From: Trichoplax sp. H2
Taxonomy: Eukaryota
DNA: 64,000 nucleotides
Assembly (NCBI GenBank): GCA_003344405.1
Contig: NOWV01000177.1
Span: forward strand, 1 to 64,000
Reading direction: 5' to 3'
Each line of letters begins with the position of its first letter. Position 1 is the first letter of the stretch. A program made the position numbers and the translations under genes. A model generated the notes under the pieces. The model was given only the letters and a program-made list of their open reading frames with translations, did no database searches and had not been told where the DNA came from. This document shows, piece by piece, positions 20,025-40,988 of this stretch.

Positions 20025-23000
20025 CTATAATTCATCTTTTTCTTTGGTATCCTCTTCATTATCATCGACCTCCTAGATAGTGACATTGATATACAAATGA
20101 TTAGAAGGACAGTTGAACAGTTAAAGCAAAACGAAAGTGCATAATATTGTCTGTCTTAAGATATTATCTATCTCATCATTGCAAGTGTTGATGAAATGTT
20201 ACTAAGTAATTAACTTACTTCCTCCTTAGGAGCTTCGGCCGGTTGTTCTTCTTCATCAAGATCATCTTCGTGTTCGACCTATTGTTTACAAACATTATTA
20301 TCAATGCTAACCAAACATTAAATACAATCTTCCTTGTACAGCAAACATCAATAAAACCTAACAACTAACCTTAGCCTCAGGATCGATGTTAGCGCTTAGA
20401 CGTAACATCCTTTCAATGCGACTGGCGAAATCCGATGTTTGCTAAAAAAAAAATAATAATGTAGCGCTCAGTGACAGTCCAATAATAAATTTGAATCAAC
20501 TTAGCCTACATACATCTAATGCAAATCCAGAACGCAACATGGCAGTATCAAACATAACACGTGCGATGTCCTTAGCAGTGTGATCATCTGGGCTATTCTA
20601 AAGATGTTACGATAAAATAGCGTTAATATCAACTTAATTTTATGCCACAGCAAAGGTTAATGTATCAACTGTATTTGTGTTAACTTATGCTAAAGCCTTT
20701 AATACGTACTTCAACACGATTTAACAATTCCTTTATTAAAGGATGGTAGGGATTAATTTCAAGGTGTTTCTTTTGCTTTGTGAAGAACCTGGTTTTAAAA
20801 ATACAGTAAAAAAATAGTATTACATATACTTCATTAGAATACATCTACTTAGAGTTTACAGTATTTCATTTACTATTCGTATAATCATTCAAGTATAACA
20901 TTCTCCTCGGAATGATTACAATTATTTTACAGTGACTTACTTGGTATTGGCGTCGTCCTGTTTAGCATACGCTTGAGCTTTCATAATTCTTTCCATATTA
21001 CCTGACCTATATAAGTGTATTTCAATCAAATATCAAGAAGAATGTTAGATATAGGTGTGTAGGTAATTACCATTATCAACCATATCACGTACCATGCAAA
21101 ACTACTTGCAACAAGTGCACAAGGTGATTCAGAAAGACGTTGCGATATTGCCACTTTTTCAATGAGATCTTTAAGACCTTTGTCTTTCAACCAATCAGTC
21201 AATGGTTTGAATTTGGTTTCCAAAGATTTTTGCCTGTCCTTCTTTTTATCGGTATCTTCACCAATTTTTAATCCTTCTTTTGCAACGTTTTGGAATTTTT
21301 TGCCCTCAAATTCTGGTAACGACTAAATTTATAGAAGTATAATTGATAGCATAAGTACTTTAAGATTCCAAAGTTAATTTACTAGATATTAAACCTAAAA
21401 GTTATACCTGAAGTGCATATTCATCAACAGCTTCAGTAAGATATAATACTTCATAATTCTTTTGACGTAAACGCTCAACAAATGGAGACGCTTCAGCTTC
21501 TTGACGGCTTTGAGCACCAATAAAGTAGATATGTTCTTGTTTATCTTTCATACGTTCAATATATTCACTAAGAGTGGTAGTTTCATCATCTCGTGTATAC
21601 GAAGAAAAGAATCTGCAAATTGAGTAATAAATTTATGAACGTTTGGATACTTCAAAACAGAAACTGTTGACATGATATCAATTTTTTTTATCTACAGTTA
21701 TTGATAGTACTAGTGTCTAATGATGTATCGAAGCAGTTCATTCATTTTTTACCTTAACAATTTGGCTATTCTAGTTCTATTTGAAGAATCTTCCATTATA
21801 CCCAATTTTAAACTAGTGCCAAATTCTTTCCAGAATTTATCAAAATCAACGGGGTTCATTTTTTTAATCATATCTAAGGCCTATTACAACGGTAATAAAG
21901 TTAATTTATTCTTAGTATATCAGAAGCGTAAGAATAATTAAATAGGTATCAATTCAAGAAAGGTAATAACTGACCTTACGAACCAACTTCTTTTTGATTA
22001 CTTTGAGAAGCTTATGTTGTTGAAGCGTCTCTCTAGAAACGTTCAAGGGTAAATCATCTGAATCAACTACACCACGAATAAAGGACAGGTAGCGAGGCAT
22101 CATATCCTGAAAGTCATCGGTGATAAAAACTCGGCGTACATATAACTTAATGTTGTCAAGATGTTTGCCGAATTCTTGATAAAAGTTATAGGGAGCTTTC
22201 TGGGGAACGAATAGGATTGAACGGAAAGTAACTTCTCCCTCAGCAACAAAGTGAGTTTTGGTTAATGGTGATTCAGTGTCTTTCGAGAATTGTTTATAAA
22301 ATTCATCATAATCGGTTTCTTCTACATCTTTAGGACTTCTCGTCCAAATCGGTTTATTTCCGTTCATCAATTCCCAGTCCCAAACCGTTTTGTCTACTTT
22401 TCTAGTTTTAGGTTTTTTTTCTTCTTTTTCTTCTTCAACTTCTACCTCTTCATCTTTCTTTTCTTCCTTTGCTTCTTCATCTTTTTTTTCATCTTTCTTT
22501 GTATCTTCATCTTCGATTGGTTCTTCTACAGTTTCAACCTTGTTAAATCAATTTTAATTTGACAATTACTGAATTTGCATACATTGCAACATTTATTGCA
22601 CGATGTTAGTAACATATTTATAATTATCGAGTGTACGAGTGGAAAATAATTATCTTACCTTACTTGCCCATAAGTAAATGTTGAAGTTAATAAACTGACT
22701 GTATTTTTTAATAATAGTTTTTAAAGTTTCTTGTTCTAAGTATTCTTGAGCTTCTTCCTTAAGATACAGACTGACAGTAGTACCACGTCCAAGAGTATTG
22801 CCACGTGGATCTTCGGCAACAGAGAATTGGATGGAATCTGATTGCCATATATGCTGTATGTCGTCGTTATGCTTACTTGTAACAACAACTCTATCAGCGA
22901 CTGCAAATAACAGTTACAAAATTACATTTTTAGTCGATTATTATTTCTTACTGACGACGCGATCTAAGGATTATGTGCAGAATGATTGTTGCGCCGATAA

Positions 23001-26000
23001 GTAGATAGTAAAGTATTTTTACAAACCAAGGAAAGCAGAATAAAAACCAACACCAAATTGTCCGATGAGATCGCTAGCCTGTTTGCTTTCTTCACCAGAT
23101 TCCTGTAAAGATTGGCAATAGACAAAGTATTAAGTAAAGATGGATCTCTACAATATTGTAATAGCAATATCCTCTTCATTAATAACAGCTAAGTTACTAT
23201 ATGTAAAATGCCAAATAATGAATAAGTGAGGATAGAAGGCATTAAACAGTCTCTAGTTCTAGACTGTTAAGATTTAAATTAATAAAGTTACCTGCATCTT
23301 TTTGAAAAATTCATTTGTTCCAGATTTAGCAATAGTACCAAGATTTTTAATCAAATCTTGTTTTGTCATTCCAATACCAGTATCGGTGATATGTAGAACA
23401 CGATTTTCTTTATCGACCTGATATTGACAAAATTATTTTTTTCCAGTTAACAACTTCAGGTTTCAAAGTAGTAAGCAAAAGCTCTAATCAACCATGTAAC
23501 TTGCAAATGGAATATGGTACATCTATTTACCTTAATTTTGATTTCGAGTTCCGGGTTATTGCCTAATACTTCCTTATCAGTAAGTGACATAAAACGAATC
23601 TTGTCTAAGGCATCAGAGGAATTGGAAATGAGTTCGCGAAGGAAAATCTACACGAGATTAAGAAATTGGTTAATTCTCATTTTTTTTAATGTAAATTGAT
23701 ATTACTACAATAATTACAACCATATGTAAATTCACTATTACAAGCCGAAATTTTTAGGACATACCTCTTTATTCCTGTACAAGGAATTAATAATCAGCTT
23801 CATCATCCTGCTAACTTCTGCTTGAAATTCACTCTTTTCACCCTTTTCTCTCAATTCTTTCATTTGTGCAACGTTCAAACCATCAATCTGCGAGTAAAAA
23901 AATATGCTACTTAGAACAGTGTAGACAATAGCATCATTATTTTATATTTTTTACAGAATTGACAGAATTATAATAATGTTATATATACAGTATATCATCT
24001 AATCGTCGTTGCAAAATATTGGCACCTATACACTAGTGTACGCGTACAATGAATGCTGTAATACGAATAGTAAAGCAGCTAATCTACCTTAATGGCTTCC
24101 TCTTCCCTGTACCATTAACAAGTAGATACCGTACCAGAATTGTTATATGCAAAAGAATACATAAGTCGATATTTAAGTATAGTAGACAACTTGTAATCAC
24201 TATTTGAATCACTTAAGCCAGACAAGTATAAAACAGCAATGATTCGCATCGCTATTATTCATAATACCGTGCAACAGCTTCGTCATCGGTCTTTGATGCA
24301 TCACGAGATTTACCAATGTCCTCTTCTACAGTTGCAGCTGGTTTTTCGTCGTCCTCAGCTCTGCAGGTTGCTATAAATAATGTAAAACTTACTATTAGGG
24401 GGCATTGCTTAGACTAGCTAAGTAGAAGAAGTGGAAACTATACGCATTTATTACAGTACTACAGTGTGCCTCTAAAATTGAATCATGTTGATATATATTT
24501 TCTAGTAGAGGTATTGTAAATTGGAATTAAGTCGGAAATAGTTGTTACTTTGAACACATTCTTATGTTATACAAGGTAAAGAAAATGCAACTTGCGCAAC
24601 AAAAGACAATCACTTCATAATGTCATTACTATCCATATTAGCACTGTATTAATATCTGCATTACGTATACCGTTGGAGTAGAATACTGAATATTTGGTGG
24701 ACTTACTAACATTATTTACTAAATGATTATTGAAAAGTTCCATTTTTTTTAAGCCGTACATGTCTATCTTAATGAATTAATTAAATATAACGCGATGCAG
24801 TAGAATAAGAGAACAACATGAAAATTGTGTAATAGATACGAGAACATCAATATTATTTGAATAACAGTGTTTGTCTCGTATAATTAAATAGTCTAAAAAT
24901 TATAAATACGCTTAGCTGCCAATAATAGCCACAGGAAAATATTTATCCAAAAAATTGTACTCTTTTGGGTGAAATACACAGGTCGACTAAAGCAACATCT
25001 AAGTGATAATCAGATAAATACGAACTCATTTAAATTGTTGCATCGTGATATTACCAATGATGACCGATCGTTCTAGGGATCAATTAGTCTACCGATGGTT
25101 TTACAGAGAGAGCATCATTCATCATAAAAGTTGTATTTTTAACGTATTGCTCTAACTGTACAGTACTGTAGACTATAGTAGATAAGGATAACACTTTATT
25201 TATAATCTTGTTATCGATCTGGACGATAACAATAATTTCATCCAAGTTGTTGTATCATCATTTTATGAATAACCATGTTGTCGATTCGCCTAGGATAACT
25301 CAGTCTACCTCTAGTGTCTCAGAGAAGAAGAGTCTATAATAAAGAAATTGTTATATTTTTTTTCACATGAGCAATAGACTATTTATCTATTGTTATCGTT
25401 TAGCATGATTACCACCAGATCAAGATTAAGGTATTGAAAGCGTGATATTAATAATTTTGTGGTAGCATCGATCGGTCTAGGGCTATTAGCGCAATCTGCA
25501 ACAACCAGTGAAAGTTAGCCACGTTGACTATTATTGTTTTAAATTTGTCGTGAATACATCAACAATTCATTTCTTATCTATTTTAAAGGAGTCATAACCG
25601 GTGAGTGAGGCATTGATGGTATGGGAGAAAAAAACAACATCATGTAATTACTTTGTACACATGATCATAATACGTTGAAGGATATGAAAATAACCGTCTT
25701 AAATTGATACATTGTAAACAAAAGCATGGATGATTGCCCGGGTGTTATTTCTCTCAAGCGTTGCATATTCACTTGTTTCTTTCAAATCTACTACCGTGTG
25801 ATAGTGCTAAATTCAAGAAGCTCGTAACTGCACTGAAGTGATTGTCATCTTGGTCGATGATATGATGGCTTTAAAAGCAGTAAAGAGCATACTATTACCG
25901 AATCAATCGAATTCAGTTGTCTAGAATGGATAATGGAAGTAGCTTGTTTGCAAAAGACTACTTTTGTTCCGCTACAGTAATAACATGATTTATAGTTTAA

Positions 26001-27072
26001 GCACTCTATTTCACTGCAAGTACAGTACAAGCCATTTCTGTACATACATGAAATCCGAGACTATGAACATAGTCACGCATGTACTGTATTGAATAAGTTA
26101 TAGGGTGTTCAACCATATATAAATATTTAAATTCGATTTCTTACTAAACCTAGTGCATATAAACGGGTTGTTTAACAAGAGCAAGTTTGTCAACATCGAC
26201 ACTATCTACTAAGCGTGATTAACAACAAATCGGATGCTTCGGTATCCATGCAAGCATTTTCAACGATTTCTACTTTAAGAAGCTCCCTTGGAATCGATGA
26301 CGTGAGTGGCTTCTGATCCAAATCCATCTACTAGATATGGACAGGATTGGGGGAGTCTTACTTAACATTGATAGCTATTCCCAAAATGACTAGCAAATGC
26401 TTGCATCCTGCGCATTCATTGAAGATCGGCCAAGGTGAAATAGTGAAGAAGGTATATCGATGCAAGCCAGCATGCATCCATATCGTCTTGTACTATAATA
26501 TGAAATTAGCATTGAGTGAAGAAGTTATGCACCGCTAGAGCACGCTCATTTTCGGAAAACTCAATCCAATAGATGATCGATAGACATGTATTGGACAGAG
26601 GACAAGACTGCTTTTCTAAGTATTCTTTCTACTCTTGTTCTATGAACATTTGAAGGTTGCTCCAAACAGAAGCAATGCGATTTTGCACCAACGTGTTGGG
26701 CACGCTTGATTGCATGGTACTCTTGTACAATGAACCACGCTGTTGACTTCTTTCTACACGCTCAGTCACCATTTTGACATAAACTATGGCACCCTTTATG
26801 TGTCTATCTTACTACTAATGCCATTGTAAATGATCTCTAGCTATTTTAAACTTTTCATCATGTCATCAATGACCATCATGTCGACATGATGATCCAATGA
26901 GCCAGTAGTAACATGAGCGAAAATGAAGAAGAAATCATTTTCAATTGGATGGAATTTCCAATCGCTCAACATGTGTGGCGCAAAGGCAAAAAATATTCCG
27001 CAAAAATACTGGTAACTTACGCGTTAAAGCCAGACAGAGTAGAGCAATTAAGAGATAGTATTTCCAGGTCAT
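20025..27072 (-). CDS. HSP90B1: Endoplasmin / GRP94 (ER HSP90)
   Basis: Exon 1 27072-27021 [17 protein letters not shown] (signal peptide); 24370-24268 ([19 protein letters not shown]); 19-nt exon 24106-24088 (EEEAIK); 23887 onward [41 protein letters not shown]; then [88 protein letters not shown]; last exon ends EKDEL-TAG at 20025. Confidence 0.97.
26296..26305 (+). promoter_or_regulatory. UPRE/XBP1-like element GATGACGTGA in HSP90B1 intron 1
   Basis: Matches the TGACGTG(G/A) consensus; short motif, supported only by context. Confidence 0.35.
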
Positions 27073-27444
27073 GATGGATAAAATAGCAAGGAGAAATGGA
27101 TGACCACCTCTGAAGAAATGGTGATGAGAATCAACCGGTCTTGAATGGAATGTACAAGAGGGAGCAAGAGTCCACCAATTAAAAGAGTCAAGCCCAGGAA
27201 GGTGAGGCTACCAGGATACTATGTACTGTAGTAGACTTGACTTTTTGGACGGGACCCAAGCGTACAGTAGTCCCTACGGACACTCTGGTGTGCATACTGT
27301 AGCAAGCCATAGCACGCCATCATCTATTGCAGTCTGTCCCTTGCCTACAGTATACTGTAGAGTATTGTACTGTACACTGTAGACAACACACACAAGTGGT
27401 GGTGAACGATGGTGACTGAATTGTTGCAGCGTGCACTGGCGTAG

Positions 27445-27463
27445 CGTGGCTAATGATGATTGG
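27445..27463 (-). promoter_or_regulatory. ER stress response element (ERSE) CCAAT-N9-CCACG
   Basis: Minus strand reads CCAAT catcattag CCACG, an exact consensus in the orientation of HSP90B1, about 370 bp upstream of its ATG; two more CCAAT boxes at 27500-27509. Confidence 0.8.
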
Positions 27464-27542
27464 CTGGCAGCATAATAACGTGACGCGCGTCTCAATCTGA
27501 TTGGATTGGCTTTGAATGTAAAGCGACACCGTTTCTTTCTTT

Positions 27543-28791
27543 ATCGATGGTCACGGACTGACAGTCACCTACCTACCTACAGGTGTACAGTGTACACTGT
27601 ACAGTGTACAGTACTGTACTGTACTGTACTGGTCGATAGTCCAGTACAGTCGACGCCTTGGTAGTATCGATCGATAGTGGATCACTGACTGACTGTCACA
27701 GAGTGTCACCTACCTACTGTCGACGCCTTGGTAGGATCGATCGATAGTGTATCACTGACTGACTGTCACAGAGTGTCACCTACCTACTGGTGTACAGTGT
27801 ATAGTACTGTACCCAACTGTACTGTCGACGCCTAGGCAGTATCGATCGATAGTGGATCACTGACTGACTGTCACAGAGTGTCACCTACCTACAGGTGTAC
27901 TGTACTGTACTGTCGACGCCTTGGTAGTATCGATCGATAGTGGATCACTGACTGACTGTCACAGAGTGTCACCTACCTACTAGTGTACAGTGTATAGTAC
28001 TGTACCGTACTGTACTGTACTGTCGACGCCTTGGTAGTATCGATCGATAGTGGATCACTGACTGACTGTCACAGAGTGTCACCTACCTACTGTCGACGCC
28101 TTGGTAGGATCGATCGATAGTGTATCACTGACTGACTGTCACAGAGTGTCACCTACCTACTGGTGTACAGTGTATAGTACTGTACCCAACTGTACAGTGT
28201 ACAGTACTGTCGACGCCTTGGCAGTATCGATCGATAGTGGATCACTGACTGACTGTCACAGAGTGTCACCTACCTACTGTACTGGTGTACAGTACAGTGT
28301 ACAGTACTGTACCGTACTGTACTGTCGACGCCTTGGTAGTATCGATCGACAGTGGATCACTGACTGACTGTCACAGAGTGTCACCTACCTACAGGTGTAC
28401 TGTACTGTACTGTCGACGCCTTGGTAGTATCGATCGATAGTGGATCACTGACTGACTGTCACAGAGTGTCACCTACCTACTGGTGTACAGTACAGTGTAC
28501 AGTACTGTACCGTACTGTACACTGTACTGTCGACGCCTTGGTAGGATCGATCGATAGTGTATCACTGACTGACTGTCACAGAGTGTCACCTACCTACTGG
28601 TGTACAGTATATAGTACTGTACCCAACTGTACTGTCGACGCCTTGGTAGCATCGATCGATAGTGGATCACTGACTGACTGTCACAGAGTGTCACCTACCT
28701 ACAAGTGTACATACAGTGTACAGTACTGTACTGGTCGATAGTCCAGTACAGTTCTGCAAACTGGACTGTCTACGCCTTGGCAGCATCGATC
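27543..28791. repeat. Tandem array of 11 complete 69-bp conserved units separated by variable-length GTACA-rich spacers, with degenerate terminal copies
   Basis: Unit GTCGACGCCTTGGTAGTATCGATCGATAGTGGATCACTGACTGACTGTCACAGAGTGTCACCTACCTAC starting near 27649, 27719, 27824, 27912, 28022, 28092, 28208, 28324, 28412, 28529, 28634; spacers from 1 to about 48 nt. Confidence 0.95.
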
Positions 28792-29555
28792 TAAAGTGTA
28801 TCGGTCATTCTATAGTATTCCATTGCAGGTACTGTATCGGTATTATGAAAAGCGATATCAGACCGTGGTCCCATGGCGTCACCCTGTTGACTCTCAAGGA
28901 GAGAGTGACGTGAAGAAAAACGTGCTGTCAGTCCATACCGTGTGGAAAGCCAGAGACACTGAAGTAAGAAAGAGATGGACAGAAAACGCTACACTGTACT
29001 ACTCCAAACGACACGGCTGAATTATTTTGACTGCGTATCGACCTCCATTTTAGTCATTGATGATAAAAGAAAGAGGGGGGATAGGAAATGGATCGATCGC
29101 TCAGCACAGTATACTAATCCTTTAACATCGCACTATGTTGATGACCATTTCAACTAAATCATCCATCACGACAAAACTGTCAGTGTGTGACTGTCTACGA
29201 TTGTCCTCCGATGACCTACTACACTACTTTGTTTGCTTTCTGTAGTAACATATAGTAGAATGAGCAGTTCAAAACTTCAAATGATCTCCACTGAATGTTC
29301 ACTTCTCGTCTTTCTGTCTATACTATCTGTTTCCATAGCTAAACCAAGTTCTTACCTCACCATCGTCCTTTCTACTGGCAGTAAATATTACTATTGCAAT
29401 AATTCATATGAATAAAGGACCTAACATAAGAAAAATTGATTTAAAACGTGTACCGTTATATGTTGTAAAATCCCCATTTTACAGTATTTTGTATCAGAAA
29501 CTACAGTGAAATTGAGTCTTCTGTACACTGATAAGACTGATGCAAACGGTAACAC

Positions 29556-29565
29556 ATGACGTCAT
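29556..29565. promoter_or_regulatory. Perfect CRE palindrome ATGACGTCAT
   Basis: Exact 10-bp CREB/ATF palindrome about 2.5 kb upstream of HSP90B1; function unproven. Confidence 0.3.
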
Positions 29566-30685
29566 CCATTACGGCTAAAGGAAGCCAAAACATGGTGGAA
29601 AAAATAAAGAATCACTCACAGGGTGATGCTTGTAAATCGCCCAGCTTTTTTAAGCAAAGTATGATAGGTGGTACTGTGCAGAGAAACGGGATCTCCTTCA
29701 TTATGACAATTAATAGAACCGTATACTATAACTAAGTTTAAATCACGCAATACTTTCAATTTTGCCTTACGCTATTGAATAGCTGAAATGGTATTCCAAT
29801 CTTATAAATTCATTCTATCCATTTGCATGGTTGTATGCAATGAAATAAGGCGAATTGAAGGATAGAATTTTAATTGGTAAAAGTAGCTGCGCTAAAATAA
29901 TATTCAAGACGTTCACTATCTTGTCTAGTCCAATCCTCTATTGATCTCACTATGTCATTTGACTGACAAGAAATGTGTTGATCTTGCTACCAATAATTTT
30001 TAATTTTTATTGTCGTACAGCGTAGGAGCGATTTATGAATTTTATTCCTATTGGCATAATTTTAAATCTTAATTTGAAGCACTATAATATCGATCTCAGC
30101 GATGAAAGTCATATCCTTACAAGCCACATTTTCCACCGTGTAGGATGATATAAAATCAGGGTAATCATTTGGTCAGACTTGAGTCTTATTTGAGGCAATA
30201 TCCGTAACTTGAGCAAGACTATCAAGTTCTAACCAATTTCTGTATAATATCCATCATTGACTGTTGGTGAGCATGTTTGTAATTACTAGTATTAGCAATA
30301 TTGATATCAACAGGAGTCAATTATAGCGGCTAGTGTAGCCAATGCTACTCACTCAGTCATCGTGCTTTCACTTTTCTCTCAACTTAAAGTAGGTACTCTG
30401 GTAGGCAGTATCTACCGTAAAACTGTAGCTATGACTGTTTGCTCGTAGCGAAAGAAATAGAAGCTTGGACTATTCTCTCCCCTTCGTCAGTACTGTAAAT
30501 AGCGCCAAATTGTAACTGTGAATGCTATATTGGTAGCAAGAAGAGGCAGGAATTTGTCGACGATCGTCATCGCATACCGTCAAAGCTGGCGTAAACCTGC
30601 AAGACTCTAGTATGTAGTGTCGTTGCTCTATTTTGACTTTCTCTCCTCTTCGACAGTAGAATCACCCAGTAGTCCAGATATTCAC

Positions 30686-31085
30686 CAGTGGAATTACTTC
30701 AATATTAGTGTTTAGTGTTGTGGCCTTTAAAAGTGGAATTAGTCCAGTATTCGCGTTTAGTGTAGCGGCCTATGAAAGTGGAATTAGTACTTAAAGTTGC
30801 GGCCTATGAAAGTGGAATTAGCCCAATGTTAGCGTTTAGTGTTGTGGCCCATGAAAATAGAATTGGTCCAATATTCATCCTTAGTGTTGTGGCCTATGAA
30901 AGTGCAATTAATCTAGAATTAATGTTTAATGTTATGTCCTATGAAAGTGGAATTAGTCTAGTATTAGTGTTTGGTGTTGCGGCCTATGAAAGTGGAATTA
31001 GTCCAGTCCAATATTAGTGTTTAGTGTTATGGCCGATGAAAGTGGAATTAGTCCAGTATTAGTGTTTTAGTGTTGCAGCCTATGA
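30686..31085. repeat. About 45-bp minisatellite, 8-9 diverged copies
   Basis: Unit like ttagtgttgcggcctatgaaagtggaattagtccagtattagtgt; produces the 15-aa periodic ORF 30772-31017. Confidence 0.9.
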
Positions 31086-31151
31086 TAAAACATCTTTTTT
31101 ACCGCAACAGCCCAAACTATTTGACTCTTAAGCTAGCGGATAGGCTGCGAC

Positions 31152-31305
31152 TAGATCTGAGAAAGGTTCGCTTCGGCTCAAAACCGTTATGATCTATATA
31201 AGAACCTGAATCTGAACCGCTTTGAAATCAATCAAACCTGAACCGAACCTATTTTACCATTTTCGAACTGGTTCAATCGGTTCAGTTCAATTTACAGCTA
31301 CACTA
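31152..31305. mobile_element. Possible degenerate hAT-type MITE remnant
   Basis: Clustered GAACC/GGTTC motifs in both orientations (ggttcgcttcgg, ctgaaccgaacc, ggttcaatcggttcagttc) ending in tttacagctacactag; terminal inverted repeats imperfect and no target-site duplication found. Confidence 0.3.
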
Positions 31306-34300
31306 GTACAAACTCACTTCGCTTTGCTGACGGTTTACGATAATGTACCCATTTATTAATAATTAACAGATAGTATTATCATTCGACATTATATATATCC
31401 TGGTAATAGCCAGGTACTTCTATATTCACAGCTATGCTTGTAGAATATTACTTTTCATTAATGCATTCACGGATGAAATGCTATGAAATGCTATATTAAG
31501 ATTAGTTAATGGTCCAAAACGCATTATGATAACTATTGCACGGTGATGGACATACCAAGTTAAGATTAGCAGGTACTGGAAGATATCGACAGTGCGGTAC
31601 AATGTCCTTAATATTGTGGTCAATTCTAGACCAATCATGATAATGTGTCTAAGGATCGCTTGCGCATGCAAAGTTTTAAATATTTATTCTACATTACCTT
31701 TTTTCTTAATGCTAATTTATCTAAATTTTATGTACCAGCAATATTGATTGTCATTGCTGCCAATAAAAGAGCTTCAGATAGGACTTATAATTATTTATAC
31801 TATAGAATTATGCTTATTGCCTATTGATTATCCACATCGACGCTTGCTTAAGGTGCAGCCAAGCAAGTATAATGTTAAATTGAAAACAGTTTACAGATCA
31901 AAGTACATTCAATCTATCGATATCGGCACTTTAGATCGCCTGTAGATCAACCATATTAAAGGGAATGGCAAATCAAATCACAAATAATCAAAGCAAATAA
32001 AGCAGTCCCATTTAAACATTACTCAGATGCAATAGAATACAATTTAAAAACGATCGATGTCAAGAATTCAACAATAGTTCTGTTGTGCTATAGCCAACAG
32101 AACTTGCTTCCTTCATTTCACTCCATAAATCTTGCATCTTTTAGCTTAAGGCTATCATGGTTTTATGGCCATCAGCTTAATATAATAAGATAAATAAGCA
32201 TAAACTTATATCAGAACCTTGTTTAAACCACTCTACTCATTGTCATTACCAAGTACCTTTTATGCTGTTTATTGAACATGGAGCCAATGTATAATAATGC
32301 CCACGCCTACATTGACCGAGTTATTTACTCATGTATTGAATTTATCGCAATAACTGTAACAGAGAGTCGATGAAGAATAGATTCAACCTTTACAAATTAG
32401 TATAATATCCCTAATATAACTAGCAAAGTGATTGATAGTTATATTGAAGCAGATTGAATAGCATCTTCAAGAGAACAATACTTGGCCCAATAGTATTTAT
32501 TAGCTTAACACTGCTGCAGGCTGTGCTTAGCAATCTGCCTTTAGGAGTTAATTAATAAGTTGTAATTATAATTAATTTTTTCCACTACTTTATCCTTGAT
32601 TTGGCCTTTAGGATCTTATCCTAGGTTGCAACGTGTATTTGCTAGCCAGGAATTGGGGAAGAGATCCAAGCAGTAACCTAGCCAAAATATTTTCTTGTAA
32701 AAGACAAGGCCATTACGACAGGCAGTGGCGAAATCATCGCCATACTTGAAAAAAAATCAACTGAACAGGTAAGTTTTTACTAGGTAAAAAAGTTTCAAAT
32801 AAGTGCTATATTAAAAAAATTTTTAAAGGATGGGCAGATTTCAATGCTGATTACTGCTTAACTTTACGTATTGGATAATATTCAATTAAGAGCGGCATCA
32901 ATTCAAATTCATCCAACATCAAATAGTGTTTGTTTCTTAACAATTATCGTCTAATTAAATGTTGTAGTCAAGAATTGAAGAAAATGAAATCTGAAAGCTA
33001 TACCGTAGCTCAATACAATCAAGAGATTTCAACCGAAGGAAGAGGTAAGGGTAATTCGATCTTTTCATTCTTGGTTTTTTTTGGACTTTGGGGATGGCTA
33101 TGATAACGCTACGTTTATTGTCAGGAATAACTTTTTTTGCTTTCATTATTCATCCAATTGCGTTAAATTATCATTTCGATCTTTCTCTAAGGATAATAGT
33201 ATCCTAATCATTTTAAAATAGAGATTAACTACGATTATTGTTTCAGTGATATTGAGGCCAACTCGTTGACCATGATATCAACAGAAAATGATCATTTATC
33301 TTGACCTTAAATTAGCAATCAATTCGTCTGAAAGAAATTCTATTTACCTTCCGTTTGATCGTATCAAATTGAAATCGTTTAAATAATCATTATCACTAAC
33401 TGCACGATACTATTGCAATTTACTTCCCACTATTTTCATGCCACTAATGAAGTGTATGATCACGAAATTTCAAGACTTAGAAAATGATTGATTGATTTTT
33501 CTCCATAGTAATTTGCAGATGGGGTAGATCAGGGTTCTATTTAGCCTAGATTTGAACATATAACATTGATATATATTGCAATATCGTCAGATGAAATTAC
33601 ATTAATATTGTGATATTATATTTATGTGGCTCAAAAGGTATAACGCCAAGTGTTTACGTAGTATGAAGCAAGTATTCGATTACAATATCGAAAATAATTT
33701 TACTGTTATATAGATTTTAAATAACGCTCGATAGTTATTAGTACCAAATTCAGTCGTAAGAGTATAATGATATCGTGCTGAATGAAGAATAATATCATCA
33801 GTTGATCATCCCAATAGTTAGCACTGCATGATTACAGCTTCATTGTTTCCTCCTGTTTATACGGCGTCGAACAAGTTTAAAGTGAGAAATTATTTATTCG
33901 ACAACGTAGTTGAATGTGTCAATCAGATTGATATTAACATATTTCCATAAAATTTAAGTAAATAAATTTTTTCTCGTAAAAGGCTTATAATGCTGAAAGT
34001 GTCTTGTAAAAGGAAAGTTTCATTGAGCTAATAGTATAAAATAATTTATTGCTTACCTTATTACGTTAAATGTAGCATCATTTGACGAAAAGTGTATCCT
34101 AGTCATTTCTTTAGTATACCAGTATATAAAATTGAATATTTTTTTCATTTCCATTTAAAATTTCAATTGTTAAACATCTACAATGTCTCAACAAATCTTT
34201 TAATTACGTATAAAATATAATTTGCCTTTGAAAACCCAGAATAAATTTGTCGATATCCAAGGAAGGATGGCTTTTATTGACCGATTTAAACTGCGGTACG

Positions 34301-35411
34301 TAGTTGCACCTTAGTTTTAGTTACATTTTTCCTAGTTAAAGTATCTAAATGGAAATTGAAGATGCTGTAAGTCTTATCAAGCATCAAGATTGAACACCTC
34401 AAATTTTACATTCCTTAAATAGCTCCCAACTGGCCATATAATTTGTTTTTTACTACTTAAGAATTGCCCTGTAATAGTTCACTAGCCAAGTAATTTCTTA
34501 GTAGTAATCAACTTTAAGCAGACACGATATCTTTATTTTCTAGCATTCTGTACCGGTCTACTACTGTATATTTTAGCAGTGCAGTTAGCATGAAAATCTT
34601 TATCATGTTTGATGTCTAACAACTTATGCTAAGACACGTATATGATCGTACTATTAAACTCTTAAATATCTAATATCATCGAGAAAAACGTCTTGAAGGC
34701 AGAATAGAAACACGATATAAATGACAAGTGTGGTTAAATTACATTTTGCTTTAGAAAATTGCTCTACACAGAGCAGAAAATATGAATTACTCTGCTCTAT
34801 AGAGGACTAAACGCTGCAATCATAGTCCCTACGGACTAGATTATATTGAATATTTAACTATGGTATCTTCTTAATAAATCTGATTATCTATTAGGGAATA
34901 TCTATTAATTTTCGAATAATCATAGCGTAAATTAGCTTTACATCATCTCTTCTTTGTCACTATAAAATCAGTGACGAATACCCTTATTAATAAGGCAAAA
35001 CATGAGATTGATGCCAATATTTTTGTCGGATTATATTATATTAATGTTCATTGATTTATTCGTAAGTTTTTATATTTTTCACTGATCTAGAAATGTTTCA
35101 ACTGATATTCCATTAGTCGTGCAGCAACATAGTGTAATACATTTGACCATTTTGTTGATTAATCACATTAATCACAGATGTTTCATGAAATTTCGCATAG
35201 TAACAGTCAGCTTGGGATGCACTTGATATTCAATAGATGTTATTAATTCATTAATCATCTGTTGAGCAAAAATCAACATTCCCCTCTCTATTCCATATTA
35301 AGCTTAGAGTGATGCTGACGTTGATAAAATCTAGCTTTTATAAATGATCTTATGAAGAAAATAAGAAATGAAATGTAATTCTTTTCTTCTTCTTATAACA
35401 ATACTTGACAG

Positions 35412-38400
35412 CTGACGTTGAAAATGGCAAGAAAGAGCCAAGACAAGTTAGCGAAAAAGAAAAAAAAATATTAGACGAGGAAGATAAAGATGAAAGTATA
35501 GAGGAAGAGGAAGAAATTGACCAAGAAATGAAAGACGATCAAAATGAAATTTATTGGGGCAACTGGATGGAATTCCTTCTGTCTTGCATTGGTTACGCTG
35601 TCGGCTATAGTAATGTCTTGAGGTTTCCGTACATCTGCTATAAGCATGGTGGAGGTTAGTTGAGGTTGATTGCTTGATTACTTATTTCTTCTCGCTGAAA
35701 TTTATACCAATTTAGATATTTCCTGGTTTCAATTCAATCAGTAATACTCGTATAATAACAAACAAGGCACTTACAAATACTCGTATTTACAGATTATTAG
35801 AATTAGTGGACAATTTTACGATTTTCTACGATATTATACAATTTATAGCGAGCAAACGTCTAAGCAGATTCTTACCGGCTAAATTTTAGTGTAGAAAGGT
35901 TAAAAGATCTGACATACAAATGGAAGATAGGCGATTAAAATATAAAAGACCGAATGAATTAATGCGCCAATATTACTGTTTTGAATATTTAAATGATGGT
36001 TTGAAAATATTATAAATCGTATAGCTTTTATACCTTCACTTACAACATCTTAATTTGATTGTAATTGGACCTTTTAGGCGCTTTTCTCATTCCTTATTTT
36101 GTTTCTGTATTGTTGGTTGGAGTACCGACGTTACATATGGAGTTAGCTCTTGGCCAATATATGAGAATGGGTCCTGGCACACTATGGAAACATGTCTGTC
36201 CTGTTCTTAAAGGTACGATAAATATTCATTTCTTACATAGTAATGTTAGCGGTTAAAAAATACAAAAAAAATTTCGATTGGATTTCTTACTATAAGCAAT
36301 CTAAGTAAAGTGTTGAAACTAAGATCTTGCTGCTAAATTATTAAAATGGCAGATGCTATTCTTGAGCAATAGGCTTACACTACCAGATATTAACTATAGT
36401 TATTCAATTAAGCGCAGAGGCCTATTTGCTTTCACTTATAATATTGCGGATATATCTGATTTGATATTAATGCCTGTCCACATACTTAAAATAATATTTA
36501 GGCTTGGGTATTGCCATGATAGTTTCTTGCATTTTAAATGTGGTTTACTTTCATATCGTCTTGGCATGGTCACTCTTTTACTTTTACGCCAGTTTCTTTC
36601 CTCAATTGCCCTGGGCATCGTGTAATAATACCTGGAATACTCACGAATGCTATGTTACTGGGGATGTATTTGGAAACGTTAGCGGAAAAGCGGCTTCCGT
36701 TGAGTTCTTAGAGTAAGTTAATCGTCACAAATTACTGAATATTTAATTTCGTTGCACCGGGAGTAAGGAAATTTTCTCTAGCTATGATTTTTCGTAAACT
36801 TCCTTCCAAATAACATCGAAAATCTACCGACTATTAGCATTCCAATCTAAGATACCGCAAATAACATTTCATTGCCGTAATAAGCTGTAGATAATACTTT
36901 GATTTATAAACCTTTATAAATTCATAATTGCTTAATTTTTGATCGTCATTTATTCTAAGTCTTTTATACGCGTGTGCTTATATATTGACAGATTAATCGA
37001 TTTTCCTCAGAGTATCAATGTCACTGATGTTATAATGTCTTCTAAAATCAATAAATAATTATATGTTAGTCGCACAAGTTTCCTTTTCGCATTGCCGTAA
37101 TTACCCTAATTGCTCACCACAAATTCTGTCCTAATTGTCTCTGTGATAGTACATAGCGGCTTTTCATATAATACAAGTAGATTTATATTATTTACCAATT
37201 ATAGGAGATCCATGCTTAATGTCTCTAATTTTAATTTCATATCTTGTTAGCCTGGTTATACTATATTAAATATTTTTTACAATATCCTTTACTGATTTTT
37301 AATCTATCATAATATACACTATGTGCAATCATCTTATGTCAACGTGGAGTCGATACGATTTATTTTGTATCTTTCAACTATAAATCAAATGACATATTTT
37401 AAATTTTAGTCTAGAAACTCTAAGGATCGACGAAGGTGGAGCTTTGTATTATGATTTAGTGCCACACTTGGTAATCACACTTTTGATCGCCTGGACAATT
37501 ACCTACTGTGCAATGTGCATGGGTATCGAATCTTCCGGAAAGGTTGAATATTCTAATCAAGGATATAGTTTGTGTAGAAATAAACTAAAAGAAGAGATTA
37601 TACAGTAATTGGACCTTGTTCTCATTCAATTTACGTATCCCTTTCTTCATTCTAGGTGGTTTACTTCACCGCCACAGCTCCTTATGTTATGTTATTCTCC
37701 TTATTAATAAGAGCGGTTACACTACCGGGTGCTACTCAAGGCATTATTCAATTTCTAGTGCCGGATTTTAGTAAGCTGGGAACGCTAGATGTAAGTTCAT
37801 GTTATAGCAAACCAAAAAAATGTCTTATTTATTTGCACATAAAAATATGATAGAATGCAAACGGAAATACTGTAAGATGAAAGTGAATAAATTGAATTGA
37901 AACGTTGTTTGCATTAGCCTTGGGCTGATGCTTTAGGGCAGGTACTTTCAGCAATCGGAATTGGATTTGGTGCAATTATAACATTAGGAAGTTATAACCG
38001 CCGTGATAACAAATGTGGCAGGTAATTTCTTTTATTTCGTTTACAGTATTCATGAGCCCTTAGGTCATAATAGGAAATCGGTTTGACAAAATTATTGGAT
38101 TTGAATACAACCTACTGTTTGATTTTATAGAGATAGTGCTTACATTTGCACCATTACAAGTTTTACAAGTATAACCGCTGGTCTTGTGTGCTTTGCTGTT
38201 CTCGGCTATTTGTCTCGTATTACTGGTAAACCTATTGATGATTTGATTAGCGAAGGTATGAAAACGTTATAAAATCCTCAAATCCATTCAATTAATAAGT
38301 TGATGAATGATTAGGATTTTCTGTTACGGAACGACCAAGGATTTCAATCAGGGATAATATCGTATTAAAATAAACATGTTTAGCCATACTAAGTTATCAC

Positions 38401-40988
38401 CAGTAAAAGGATTTTTACCTACGATAAAGAATCCTGTACTTTACTCTGTAGTAATTTAGATATCTTACCCGTTACATCACAAGTATTTCCTTCTACCTTT
38501 CATTGTTATAGCTTGTGCTTTTTGTCTGTTCTATGGCTACATTAATACTCATTACAGCTAGAAAAATTGTAGAGCTGCTGATCATTACGATTGAAATTTG
38601 CTTAGAGATCTTACCGATTTCTGATTAATTGAATTTCACTTCCTGTTGGCACAGAGATCGTAATTGCCTTTATTGCCTATCCAGAAGCTATTGCAAAATT
38701 ACCAAGTCCACACTTTTGGGCCATAGCCTTTTTCTTTATGTTACTTCTATTAGGAATGGACAGCATCGTATGTGGAAAATTCTTATTCTTATAACTTAAA
38801 TCACAACCTTGATAATTAGATGATGGAGAGAGTTATGTAGGAATTGACTTAAATCTATTTTATTCTCCTATTATCAATACTAGTATGGTATGGTAGAGAC
38901 ATTAATTACCACAGCAGTTCGATTTTCGAAAGGGAGGTGGGAGAATAGAAAGCCCATGGTGACATTTTTTATTTGTGCAGGTCTTTTTACAATAGGTTTA
39001 ATATTTACTACTAGGGTAAGTTAACATGAATAGATAATGGTCTACATTGTCTACGTTTCTGTTCGTATATTTCTTTAACTAAAATTAGCATAATGCACAT
39101 GTAAAACACTACGGGGTAAAGTTATCATTTAAAACTAGCCCTATTTGGTAAACTAAAATAAGCCGTAGCTTAGCTGTTTCAAAAGCATTATAAAGCCGCT
39201 AGATTTGAGAGGTTTATAAACCACCACATATGTAATTTGAGACTGATTCTATAAGTGTGATCATAGTCAAAGTGGATATGATTATAATCATATAATTTTA
39301 GATCCTTCATTTTTATTTCTAGTCTGGTCTCTTTTGGCTTATCGTTGTAGATACCAATAATGCTGGTCCAATTGTACTTGGTTTGACCTTATTTGAGGTC
39401 TTGGCAGTTTCATTTGTATACGGTAAGAGTGGACTAAATCCTGACCAAATAGAAAATGCTAAAACATAAAGTACAGACTTATTGCATATGGAATCGCATT
39501 TTGAAAAGCGTACTAAATCTGAAGGAAATAGCAAATGCTACATATAAAGTAAAGGCTTTATTGCACATGTAATCGTATTTTAAAAAGTACACCAAATCCG
39601 AAACAAATAGAAAATGCTGAATATAAAGCAAAGGCTTTTCTGCATATTTAATGCTATTTTAAAAAGTACGCTAAATCACCTTTCAATTGAAAATGCTAAA
39701 TATAAAGTAAAGAATTTGCTGCATATGTAATCTTACTTTAAAATTTGCGCTAATCCTCACCCAATTGAAAATGGCAAATATAAAGTAAAGGCTGGATTGC
39801 ACATCAAATCCTATTTTAAAATCTGTTTACCGATATATCCCATATAAGAAATATTAAATCGAAGCTACTGCTGCTGATAAAATATTGAAAATTTTGAAAT
39901 GGATATTATGCATATAAGTTTATTGTCCACTTTACTACAGTGCATGATATATCGTCCTTGTTATGCTAAAATAAGTTTAACAATTCTATTAGCGATAGTT
40001 AGCATAACTTTATGACATTAGCAAAGAAAAAAAATGGCATCCATTACTAATAAATTTATAGAAATCATTTTACTAATATCCTTAATATATAAAGTATTAA
40101 GTTGCTGTTGCTGATTTACAGTAAATATAGAGAGCCTAAAGAAGATAAAATCATGTATATTTTTGCCTCAAAATTAGCATTTCATTTATGTAGTCTAGGA
40201 ACAGATATTTATAGCTTATTGAATGTTGTATCCATTTCAGGCGCTGATCGATTAGGTCAAAACGTCAAAGACATGACCGGATCTCGACCAAATAGCTATT
40301 GGATCTTGACATGGAAATACGTCTGTCCAATCGGTGCAGGTGTAAGTATTATATTGTCGTATTGAATGCACCTTGGCCAAAATAGTTCAATAAGCCTAAG
40401 CACATCTACTGTGAAATAAGCTCATAACTCTTAAGACTTAGCTTAGCGATTTTGCATTTCGTATCTTTAAGCTATAAGCAGTTATGATTAATTTAAACCT
40501 GGATATGATCCGGGTTTCATTGCAAATCTAATTTGTAAATTCTTTAGTTTAATTTTGTGGTCAGTTTGGCTAAAACTGAACCAATGGAATATCTTGGGAA
40601 ACCTGTTGAACCTTGGGGAGTTGGAATTGGCATCCTCTTGACATTATTAGTTTTAATTTGGATTCCTCTAGGAGCCATTTATCAACTTTATACCGCTGAA
40701 GGCAGCCTTAAACAGGTTAAGCATTTAAGCAGCTATTCTGTAGTGGTTGTAAGATTTGAAGGCTTATAAATTTATTAAGGAATCAACTACAGCTTACATT
40801 GCTTTATTCTGTACTTTAGTTCAATTTATTTTTTTGACATTTTTTTATTTATCATATAGAAATTTGCAACTTCCTTTTCGCCTCGATCAACCCATAAAAC
40901 CAAACGTAAGCAAGTGGATAGCGTTATTTTAACAAAGATCCTAACGGAGCCTTCTAAAATGGAATGCAACTATGTTTCTACAATATAG
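35412..40988 (+). CDS. SLC6 (neurotransmitter:sodium symporter family) transporter, paralogue A; 5' start uncertain
   Basis: About 13 GT-AG exons encoding [180 protein letters not shown]; ends [12 protein letters not shown] at 40988. First coding exon not located (in-frame ATG at 35528; candidate upstream exon ending near 32768). Confidence 0.92.
39433..39822. repeat. About 80-bp intronic minisatellite, 5 diverged copies
   Basis: aaaatgctaaa.ataaagtaaaggc.ttattgcacatgtaatc..attttaaaaagtac recurring near 39452, 39532, 39611, 39691, 39771. Confidence 0.85.

What the first reader, a model, noticed from the sequence alone, without database searches (positions are those of the whole stretch)
27543..28791. 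CRISPR-looking repeat-spacer array with 4-unit higher-order structure abutting the GRP94 promoter
Seen: 11 highly conserved 69-bp units alternate with spacers of 1 to about 48 nt built from the same GTACA motif found at the RanBP2/SSR4 promoter. Diagnostic variants recur every fourth unit: copies 2, 6 and 10 carry GGATCGATCGATAGTGT and are each followed by a TGTACCCAAC spacer; copies 3 and 7 carry GGCAG; copies 1 and 5 have a 1-nt spacer. Most units hold palindromes (GTCGAC, TATCGATCGATA) and TGAC repeats. The array starts less than 100 bp from the ERSE/CCAAT cluster. Inference: an amplified promoter module with two mutational layers (slippage in spacers, unequal exchange of 4-mers) that could act as a copy-number tuning element for GRP94, or a template for repeated small RNAs. 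The ATCGATA core resembles the DRE housekeeping element.
Basis: partly seen in the sequence, partly recalled or inferred. Interest (0 to 1): 0.7.

Follow-up and report, generated by a model that had tools for sequence, protein, structure and literature searches.

The report
Trichoplax GRP94 upstream compound minisatellite
Just upstream of the stress-chaperone gene GRP94 in the tiny animal Trichoplax lies an ordinary, recently expanded tandem DNA repeat whose "spacers" are this animal's already-described ACAGT promoter microsatellite, so it is not CRISPR-like, and any regulatory role is untested.

Summary
Eleven 69-bp units with 0-2 mismatches sit at 27649-28702, separated by tracts of 1-48 nt and flanked by two decayed partial copies. 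The array starts about 30 bp from a CCAAT pair and 80 bp from the window's only exact ERSE.

The window is from Trichoplax: a GRP94 exon is 99% identical to T. adhaerens TRIADDRAFT_64388. The "spacers" are GTAC cores spaced 5 or 7 bp apart. This is the (ACAGT)n microsatellite reported as the dominant one in Trichoplax and concentrated upstream of genes (Wang 2010, PMC2871265). That paper's table lists three ACAGT tracts upstream of this gene in the H1 reference.

The period-4 pattern is only partial. The closest monomer pairs lie at lags 4, 5 and 8.

Best reading: a young compound minisatellite made by local duplication of a GRP94-upstream block together with its ACAGT tract. The 69-mer occurs nowhere else in the window or in the collections I could scan, but no Trichoplax genome was available.

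A copy-number tuning or chromatin-architecture role is possible and untested. A small-RNA role is unlikely. The exact DRE 8-mer is absent.

The parts
27445..27463 (-). ERSE-type element CCAAT-N9-CCACG of the GRP94 promoter
   Evidence: The only match to CCAAT.........CCACG on either strand of the window. Read directly. The ERSE consensus itself is recalled, not looked up.
27498..27512 (-). Pair of overlapping CCAAT boxes, about 30 bp from the array edge
   Evidence: Sequence read.
27021..27072 (-). Inferred GRP94 exon 1: ATG at 27072, hydrophobic signal-peptide-like start [23 protein letters not shown] donor at 27020-27015
   Evidence: It joins in frame to an acceptor at 24372/24371 to give ...[18 protein letters not shown], which matches the H1 protein P0002 from residue 6 on. 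The signal peptide was judged by eye, not by a predictor.
27225..27381 (.). ACAGT-type tracts in the GRP94 5' region, between the ERSE and the ATG
   Evidence: Clusters of TACAGT/ACTGTA found.
27543..27583 (+). Left decayed partial copy (3' half of a unit). It has ACGGACTGA where the amplified units have ACTGACTGA
   Evidence: 16-mer matches with up to 2 mismatches to unit positions 33-68. Sequence read.
27584..27631 (.). ACAGT/ACTGT tract, including a perfect 21-bp (ACTGT)n run at 27611-27631
27623..27650 (.). 28-nt near-palindrome ACTGTACTGGTCGATAGTCCAGTACAGT, left copy
   Evidence: Identical copy found at 28725-28752 (pair I10). Folds as a hairpin at -8.9 kcal/mol, z = -4.7, 0 of 200 shuffles as good.
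27649..28702 (+). Eleven 69-bp units (GTCGACGCC...CCTACCTAC) with ten intervening ACAGT-type tracts
28703..28752 (.). Terminal ACAGT-type tract plus the right copy of the 28-nt near-palindrome (28725-28752)
28768..28804 (+). Right decayed partial copy (5' half of a unit: GTCTACGCCTTGGCAGCATCGATCTAAAGTGTATCGG)
   Evidence: Twelfth member of repeat family D4 at 84% identity. 16-mer matches.

Best explanation
This is a compound minisatellite (a tandem repeat whose copy number may vary between lineages) in the upstream region of the Trichoplax GRP94/endoplasmin gene.

A stretch of roughly 100 bp was duplicated head to tail. It consisted of a 69-bp block plus the adjoining ACAGT-type promoter microsatellite. 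Duplication was probably by replication slippage or unequal sister-chromatid exchange.

Later exchanges copied blocks of two or more monomers. This gives the partial 4-, 5- and 8-unit recurrences and keeps the interior copies nearly identical, while the two edge copies decayed.

The embedded ACAGT tracts change length faster, by microsatellite slippage. Two of them were deleted outright, probably between TACT microhomologies, leaving the 1-nt 'spacers'.

Shown: the anatomy, the host, and the identity of the spacers with the known promoter microsatellite.

Inferred: the duplication mechanism and the youth of the array. I judge the array most likely neutral or nearly so for GRP94 expression. As a side effect it multiplies a promoter-associated motif about ten-fold next to the promoter.
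For: - Eleven units with 0-2 mismatches and 0.00 expected by chance. Only 5 of 69 positions vary, and the edges hold decayed half-copies in register. This is the usual picture of a homogenised tandem array.
- Monomer lengths are 70, 105, 88, 110, 70, 117, 115, 88, 117 and 105. They are mostly not multiples of 3, and 5 of 5 stop-to-stop ORFs overlapping the array had no Pfam match. The array is non-coding.
- Spacers consist of GTAC cores spaced 5 or 7 bp apart. They match only the ACAGT tracts of the RanBP2/SSR4 promoter and a few small tracts elsewhere in the window. The 69-bp core gave only two weak 15-nt matches (E = 2.1) to one site in GRP94 intron 1.
- The host is Trichoplax: 99% identity to TRIADDRAFT_64388.
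- Wang et al. 2010 (Findings read in full) report four things. ACAGT is the dominant microsatellite motif. 54% of ACAGT tracts lie within 1 kb, and 85% within 5 kb, upstream of genes. There are 9208 minisatellites, making 2.4% of the genome. TE content is 0.13% with no active elements.
- Their additional file 5 lists three ACAGT tracts 3744, 3972 and 4092 bp upstream of gene 64388 (gp96) in the H1 reference. That zone corresponds to the array here, if the model's 5' end is the ATG at 24405.
- Mosaic relationships (1=5, 2~10, 3~8, 4~9) fit repeated unequal exchange rather than a designed period.
Against: - No Trichoplax genome could be searched, so single-locus status is shown only for this 64-kb window.
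- At 11-13 copies the array is larger than most Trichoplax minisatellites. 94% of repeat types average under 4 copies.
- It sits directly beside a stress-gene promoter and is GC-rich, 46-49% against 33% for the window. This leaves room for function.
- A CNN study of Micro-C maps reports repeating ACAGT among the motifs it found for T. adhaerens chromatin-contact patterns (PMC12817080, passages). Multiplying that motif may therefore not be neutral.
- Near-identity of the units could reflect selection as well as youth.
Confidence: 0.7

Rival explanations
1. The array is a selected, multimerised cis-regulatory or architectural module. Each monomer would supply an ACAGT tract plus a CGAT/TGAC box bound by placozoan factors. 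The array would then act as an enhancer, a promoter-hub anchor, or a boundary between housekeeping GRP94 and the gene-free 6.6 kb leading to the SLC6 transporter genes. Copy number would tune the output.
For: - The array abuts the ERSE/CCAAT promoter.
- ACAGT tracts are promoter-associated genome-wide, and the motif was picked up by a Micro-C-trained CNN in T. adhaerens.
- Placozoan housekeeping promoters form loop hubs marked by a sequence motif (PMC12221973, passages).
- The left ancestral half-copy carries ACGGACTGA. This 9-mer has 3 matches in the window against 0.14 expected (0 of 100 shuffles reach 3), and another copy lies in the RanBP2/SSR4 promoter region.
- The layout of perfect tracts differs from the H1 table: 4 tracts at spacings of about 284, 110 and 390 bp here, against 3 tracts at 228 and 120 bp. 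This hints at variation between lineages.
Against: - No expression, accessibility or contact data could be consulted.
- The amplified units carry ACTGACTGA, a mutated form of the shared 9-mer.
- The published loop-anchor motif is given only in figures, so it could not be compared.
- The H1 difference may come from assembly collapse, different model ends or intron indels.
- Near-identity of copies is explained equally well by recent expansion.
Confidence: 0.15
2. The array is part of a dispersed repeat: a satellite family, or the internal or terminal repeats of a non-autonomous DNA transposon, for example the Mutator-type elements reported at placozoan housekeeping promoters.
For: - The same 28-nt near-palindrome bounds the array on both sides (pair I10).
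- Kim et al. 2025 report frequent Mutator insertions at GP1 housekeeping promoters.
Against: - There is no copy of the 69-mer outside the array in 64 kb.
- The scan's index returned no look-alike stretch in any window for this sequence; it holds notes on 33 windows of this genome.
- There was no match in metagenome, viral or prokaryote collections. These are uninformative for an animal genome.
- The flanks contain decayed copies of the unit itself, as expected for growth in place, not for an insertion.
- No target-site duplication was seen.
- Pfam found no transposase among the 118 stop-to-stop ORFs of 45 aa or more that I scanned, which include all those beside the array.
- TE content of Trichoplax is reported as 0.13%.
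Confidence: 0.08
3. The array is a template for repeated small or structured RNAs.
For: - Long spacers fold as hairpins. Four spacers gave z = -3.3, -2.1, -1.8 and -0.7.
- There is a weak let-7-like Rfam match at 28480-28539.
Against: - The Rfam match is far below threshold (26.9 bits against 53.5). It occurs on both strands, as any palindrome would.
- The 69-bp unit folds no better than shuffles (z = +0.8).
- The hairpins are simply ACAGT-to-ACTGT switches, as at ordinary promoters.
- Trichoplax is reported to lack Pasha and recognisable miRNAs.
- No tRNA was found.
Confidence: 0.03

Closest known systems
(ACAGT)n promoter-associated microsatellite of Trichoplax adhaerens (Wang, Zhang, Meyer, Bao 2010, Biol Direct 5:18, PMC2871265)
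   Same: The 'spacers' are ACAGT/ACTGT runs with GTAC cores every 5-7 bp. Four runs are perfect repeats of 17-21 bp. They lie within about 0.5-1.7 kb upstream of a gene start. That paper's own table lists ACAGT tracts upstream of this gene in H1.
   Different: Here the tracts are carried inside a longer repeating monomer together with a conserved 69-bp block, so one promoter side holds about ten tracts. In what I read of the paper, this compound arrangement is not described.
Trichoplax minisatellites catalogued with Tandem Repeats Finder (same paper)
   Same: Head-to-tail repeat with monomers of 70-117 bp, non-coding, and detected by TRF.
   Different: About 11-13 copies, whereas 94% of repeat types average under 4 copies. 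Monomer length is variable because of the embedded microsatellite.
Promoter tandem repeats / VNTRs that modulate expression (yeast promoter repeats, human INS and MAOA VNTRs; recalled, not looked up here)
   Same: A variable-length repeat next to a promoter. This is the class the 'copy-number tuning' idea belongs to.
   Different: No polymorphism or expression data for this locus were available. Only an indirect hint of a different layout in H1 exists.
CRISPR arrays
   Same: A conserved repeat alternates with intervening sequence.
   Different: The genome is an animal's. The repeat is 69 bp. The 'spacers' are 1-48 nt of one low-complexity motif and recur between monomers. No leader or cas genes are present.
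Higher-order repeats of satellite DNA (e.g. primate alpha satellite; recalled)
   Same: Variant monomers recur at multi-monomer distances.
   Different: There is no single period. The nearest relatives lie at lags 4, 5 and 8, and there are only 11 monomers.
Drosophila DRE (TATCGATA) / BEAF CGATA housekeeping promoter elements (recalled)
   Same: The unit contains TATCGAT and ATCGATA overlapping within TATCGATCGATA.
   Different: The contiguous 8-mer is absent from every unit. Whether placozoans have a DREF-type factor was not tested.

Membership tests
Minisatellite / VNTR | Head-to-tail copies of a unit of roughly 7-2000 bp | tested here: met
   Eleven full copies plus two partial copies with monomers of 70-117 bp. 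Found by TRF and the repeat finder.
Minisatellite / VNTR | Copy number varies between individuals or lineages | tested here: inconclusive
   The H1 table lists 3 perfect ACAGT tracts (spacings 228 and 120 bp), against 4 here (about 284, 110 and 390 bp). No H1 sequence was available, and assembly or model differences are not excluded.
Trichoplax (ACAGT)n promoter microsatellite | Perfect ACAGT/ACTGT repeat longer than 12 bp | tested here: met
   Four runs of 17-21 bp at 27611, 27896, 28007 and 28396. The other spacers are imperfect versions.
Trichoplax (ACAGT)n promoter microsatellite | Location within 1-5 kb upstream of a gene | tested here: met
   The array lies 471-1732 bp upstream of the inferred GRP94 ATG at 27072.
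CRISPR array | Prokaryotic or viral genome with unique spacers of near-constant length | tested here: not met
   The host is an animal. Spacers are 1-48 nt, repetitive and shared between monomers.
Higher-order repeat satellite | One constant multi-monomer period across the array | tested here: not met
   Closest monomer pairs lie at lags 4, 5 and 8. Mean distance at lag 4 is no lower than at lags 2 or 7.
DRE (DREF-binding element) | Contiguous TATCGATA | tested here: not met
   TATCGATA has 4 matches in the window and none in the array.
Transposable element / MITE | Terminal inverted repeats with target-site duplication | tested here: inconclusive
   The same 28-nt near-palindrome lies at both edges. 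No TSD was seen, and the flanks are decayed unit copies.
Transposable element / MITE | Multiple dispersed copies in the genome | not testable with these tools
   No genome is held for this window. There are no copies elsewhere in the 64-kb window.
ERSE (neighbouring element, not the array) | CCAAT-N9-CCACG in the gene's orientation | tested here: met
   One match in the window, on the minus strand at 27445-27463, upstream of the GRP94 ATG. The consensus is recalled.

The most novel reading that the evidence does not exclude
The array is a natural roughly ten-fold multimer of the placozoan promoter/architecture code: an ACAGT tract plus a CGAT-TGAC box descended from a shared TCGAT...ACGGACTGA promoter motif. 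Under this reading it is kept because it works as a strong promoter-hub anchor, enhancer or boundary for the unfolded-protein-response gene GRP94, and its copy number differs between placozoan lineages and sets GRP94 output.
Probability: 0.12. Interest if true: 0.55.

Novelty: new member of a known kind. Interest (0 to 1): 0.25.

Why it matters
Taken at face value this is one of the roughly nine thousand reported minisatellites of a placozoan genome, so it matters little. Its one useful property is that it stacks about ten copies of the ACAGT promoter microsatellite beside a well-understood stress promoter with an exact ERSE. The function of that microsatellite was left open in the 2010 report, and in the passages I read since it is only named among contact-map motifs. 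If the array differs between cultured placozoan lineages, it gives a ready-made natural test. One could ask whether the number of ACAGT tracts changes accessibility, chromatin contacts or GRP94 expression, using published ATAC, ChIP, Micro-C and RNA data.

Tried and rejected
- Own-genome search for the 69-mer: no genome is held for this window.
- Exact-match scans for a 31-38-nt core of the unit found nothing in metagenome contigs, viral contigs or prokaryote genomes.
- A scan for the GRP94 ERSE region in metagenome contigs, meant to find an orthologous locus, also found nothing. None of these collections is expected to hold placozoan DNA, so these blanks say little.
- The scan's own index gave no look-alike stretch and no note on this window.
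- Rfam gave only sub-threshold chance matches. ARAGORN found no tRNA.
- Pfam on 118 stop-to-stop ORFs (103 of the 121 that are 62 aa or longer across the window, leaving out 18 that overlap other listed frames, plus all 15 of 45-61 aa in 28.7-35.4 kb) found no gene right of the array and no transposase.
- I tried to compare with the loop-anchor/Mutator TIR motif of Kim et al. 2025. The motif is not given in the text. The supplements held as text have no occurrence of Mutator, TIR or MULE, and two supplement PDFs are pictures and could not be read.
- A 16-mer resemblance at 25459 in GRP94 intron 1 was inspected and dismissed as chance.
- Coding repeat was rejected because monomer lengths are not multiples of 3.
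- CRISPR was rejected for the reasons given in the membership test.

Full report
**What is there.** Reading 27200-29300 and running the repeat tools shows a real tandem array. A search with the 69-nt consensus, allowing up to 3 mismatches, gives 11 matches. All are on the + strand between 27649 and 28702, each with 0-2 mismatches, against 0.00 expected in 100 shuffles. The tracts between units are 1, 36, 19, 41, 1, 48, 46, 19, 48 and 36 nt long.

Only five of the 69 positions vary. Positions 33-69 are identical in all eleven copies, and four copies equal the consensus.

The flagged coordinates start and end in two decayed partial copies. The left one (27543-27583) is the 3' half of a unit. The right one (28768-28804) is the 5' half, and it is the twelfth member of family D4 at 84% identity. 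The same 28-nt near-palindrome, ACTGTACTGGTCGATAGTCCAGTACAGT, sits at both edges at 27623-27650 and 28725-28752. It folds as a hairpin with z = -4.7.

**Higher-order structure.** It is weaker than the title says. Treating each unit plus its following tract as a monomer, the closest pairs are:
- 1=5 (edit distance 0)
- 2~10 (1)
- 3~8 (3)
- 4~9 (9)
- 2~6 (12, one 12-nt insertion)

These are lags 4, 8, 5, 5 and 4. Mean distance at lag 4 (21.0) is no better than at lag 2 (21.2) or lag 7 (19.8). The repeat finder sees block spacings of 373, 500 and 320 bp, and TRF sees a 320-bp period. The array is therefore a mosaic of several block duplications, not a regular 4-mer.

**Whose genome, and the neighbourhood.** No genome is held for the window. 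Earlier notes of this scan named Trichoplax. I checked this: a 197-aa Hsp90-family exon (21957-22547, minus strand) is 99% identical to TRIADDRAFT_64388 of Trichoplax adhaerens, and the next hits are animal endoplasmins. One residue differs, so the window is not the H1 reference protein letter for letter.

Pfam on stop-to-stop ORFs gives this gene map:

| Gene | Strand | Position |
|---|---|---|
| RanBP2-like | - | 1 to ~11.7 kb |
| TRAP-delta/SSR4 | + | ~14.6 kb |
| GRP94 | - | see below |
| SLC6 transporter 1 | + | from 35.4 kb |
| SLC6 transporter 2 | + | from 48.6 kb |

Nothing was recognisable in 28.8-35.4 kb.

tblastn of the H1 protein places GRP94 exons from 24356 down to 20028. The H1 model starts without a signal peptide. 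An ATG at 27072 followed by [17 protein letters not shown] and a GTAAGT donor at 27020 joins in frame to an acceptor at 24372/24371. This gives ...[14 protein letters not shown]..., so I infer a first exon there and a 2.65-kb first intron. The signal peptide was judged by eye.

The window's only CCAAT-N9-CCACG lies on the minus strand at 27445-27463, and a CCAAT pair lies at 27498-27512. The array therefore begins about 30 bp beyond the CCAAT pair, 80 bp beyond the ERSE and 471 bp upstream of the ATG. GC content is 46-49% over 27.0-29.0 kb, against 33% for the whole window.

**What the 'spacers' are.** The tracts are GTAC (or GTAT) cores spaced 5 or 7 bp apart, with occasional gaps of 8 or 10 bp. 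Usually an ACAGT run switches to an ACTGT run, which makes them hairpin-prone. Four spacers folded with z = -3.3, -2.1, -1.8 and -0.7, while the 69-bp unit does not fold well (z = +0.8).

Clusters of TACAGT/ACTGTA (3 or more hits within 40 bp) occur in the window at only four kinds of place:
- the divergent RanBP2/SSR4 promoter region (11765-12781)
- a small site at 25155
- the GRP94 5' region (27225-27381)
- the array itself

The array is 2% of the window and holds 43 of the 165 hits.

I read its Findings in full and part 1 of the reviewers' comments. The paper reports:
- ACAGT accounts for 78% of pentanucleotide repeats, and pentanucleotides for 61.8% of all microsatellites.
- 54% of ACAGT tracts lie within 1 kb, and 85% within 5 kb, upstream of genes.
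- There are 9208 minisatellites, 2.4% of the genome. 94% of repeat types average under 4 copies.
- TEs make up 0.13% of the genome, and none appear active.

So the spacers are a known element, and the whole object is a minisatellite whose monomer includes that element.

**The same gene in the H1 reference.** Additional file 5 of that paper lists, for gene 64388 (gp96), three 17-bp ACAGT tracts at 3744, 3972 and 4092 bp from the model's 5' end. If that end is the model's ATG (24405 here), those offsets fall inside the span of the array.

In this window, perfect tracts of 13 bp or more lie at offsets of about 3216, 3500, 3610 and 4000, with lengths 21, 18, 17 and 18. Both the number and the spacing differ: 284/110/390 bp here against 228/120 bp in H1.

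This suggests a related array in H1 with a different layout. It is not proof. I did not see the H1 sequence, the model may carry a UTR, intron 1 may differ in length, and the 2008 assembly may have collapsed repeats.

**Is the unit found elsewhere?** Not in this window. 16-mers of the unit with up to 2 mismatches hit only the two flanking half-copies, one spot in GRP94 intron 1 that inspection showed to be chance, and a single weak 16-mer hit at 32353 that I did not inspect. A sensitive blastn of the unit against the masked window matched ACAGT tracts, plus two weak 15-nt matches (E = 2.1) at that same intron spot.

The scan's index returned no look-alike stretch in any window. Exact scans of metagenome, viral and prokaryote collections found nothing, which is uninformative for an animal. 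Whether the unit is dispersed in the Trichoplax genome therefore remains the main open point.

**Origin.** The left half-copy reads ...TTATCGATGGTCACGGACTGACAGTCACCTACC..., where the amplified units read ...TATCGATCGATAGTGGATCACTGACTGACTGTCAC...CACCTACC. The 9-mer ACGGACTGA has 3 matches in the window against 0.14 expected, and 0 of 100 shuffles reach 3:
- at 27553, in this half-copy
- at 12479, in the RanBP2/SSR4 promoter region, again a few bases after TCGAT
- at 46928 (minus strand), upstream of the second SLC6 gene

This suggests the unit descends from ordinary promoter-side sequence that was then amplified in a slightly mutated form. That is inference from three sites.

The two 1-nt spacers look like clean deletions of a whole tract between ...CTACT and ...GTACT ends. 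This too is inference from the sequence.

**Function.** Nothing here tests it.

For a role:
- The array sits beside a stress promoter.
- ACAGT is promoter-associated genome-wide.
- A CNN trained on Micro-C maps reported repeating ACGG and ACAGT motifs for T. adhaerens (PMC12817080, passages).
- Placozoan housekeeping promoters form loop hubs carrying a motif shared with Mutator TIRs (PMC12221973, passages). I could not see that motif. It is only in figures, and the readable supplements have no hit.

Against reading much into it:
- Minisatellites are common in this genome.
- Near-identity of the copies is what recent expansion gives.
- The amplified box is a mutated version of the shared 9-mer.

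The small-RNA idea rests only on hairpins that any ACAGT/ACTGT switch forms. The let-7 match is far below threshold and occurs on both strands. Trichoplax is reported to lack Pasha and recognisable miRNAs (PMC3563456, passages).

The DRE likeness is partial. TATCGATA as such is absent from the array.

**Verdict.** The object is a new example of known kinds, namely a Trichoplax minisatellite built around the published ACAGT promoter microsatellite. This scan has already met the ACAGT promoter arrays on other DNA of this genome. Interest is low to moderate, mainly as a natural multimer for testing what ACAGT tracts do.

Noticed in passing
window 27021-27072 (-) and 24371-24405 (-): The public H1 model of GRP94 (TRIADDRAFT_64388, 669 aa) starts at an internal ATG (24405) and has no signal peptide. 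An upstream exon (ATG at 27072, [23 protein letters not shown] donor) splices in frame across a 2.65-kb intron, so the model is probably truncated at its N-terminus.
   Followed up: partly
window 12479-12487 (+), 27553-27561 (+), 46928-46936 (-): The 9-mer ACGGACTGA occurs 3 times against 0.14 expected (0 of 100 shuffles reach 3). Two copies lie in promoter regions a few bases after TCGAT. It may relate to the 'ACGG' motif reported for T. adhaerens chromatin maps, but this could not be checked.
   Followed up: partly
window 27268-27281 and 34823-34836 (+): The 14-mer TAGTCCCTACGGAC is shared between the GRP94 5' region and a site about 570 bp upstream of the first recognisable SLC6 exon (blastn E = 0.088). 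It could be chance or a shared promoter motif.
   Followed up: no
window 28805-35398: About 6.6 kb without any Pfam-recognisable ORF between the array and the first SLC6 exon. This seems long for a genome described as compact. It holds a 45-bp tandem repeat (30687-31085, 9 copies). The SLC6 gene's 5' exons may lie here.
   Followed up: partly
window 35399-40362 and 48601-57410 (+): A tandem pair of SLC6 (sodium:neurotransmitter symporter) genes in the same orientation.
   Followed up: no
window 39446-39821, 44951-45411, 46041-46709: Further AT-rich tandem repeats: a 79-bp unit with 4.8 copies, and a 103-bp unit with 4.5 and 6.4 copies in two nearby arrays between the SLC6 genes.
   Followed up: no
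window 3737-3876 (inside ORF 1-4566, -): A 36-bp repeat (3.9 copies, a multiple of 3) lies inside the large RanBP2-like exon, which has three RanBP1-domain matches. It is probably a coding repeat.
   Followed up: no
window 11765-12360: The divergent RanBP2/SSR4 promoter region carries dense ACAGT/ACTGT tracts, with perfect runs of up to 23 bp. Additional file 5 of Wang 2010 lists no scaffold_30 tract about 12.5 kb from the gp96 model's 5' end, where these would lie. The reason is unknown; it could be gene-model, table-design or lineage differences.
   Followed up: no
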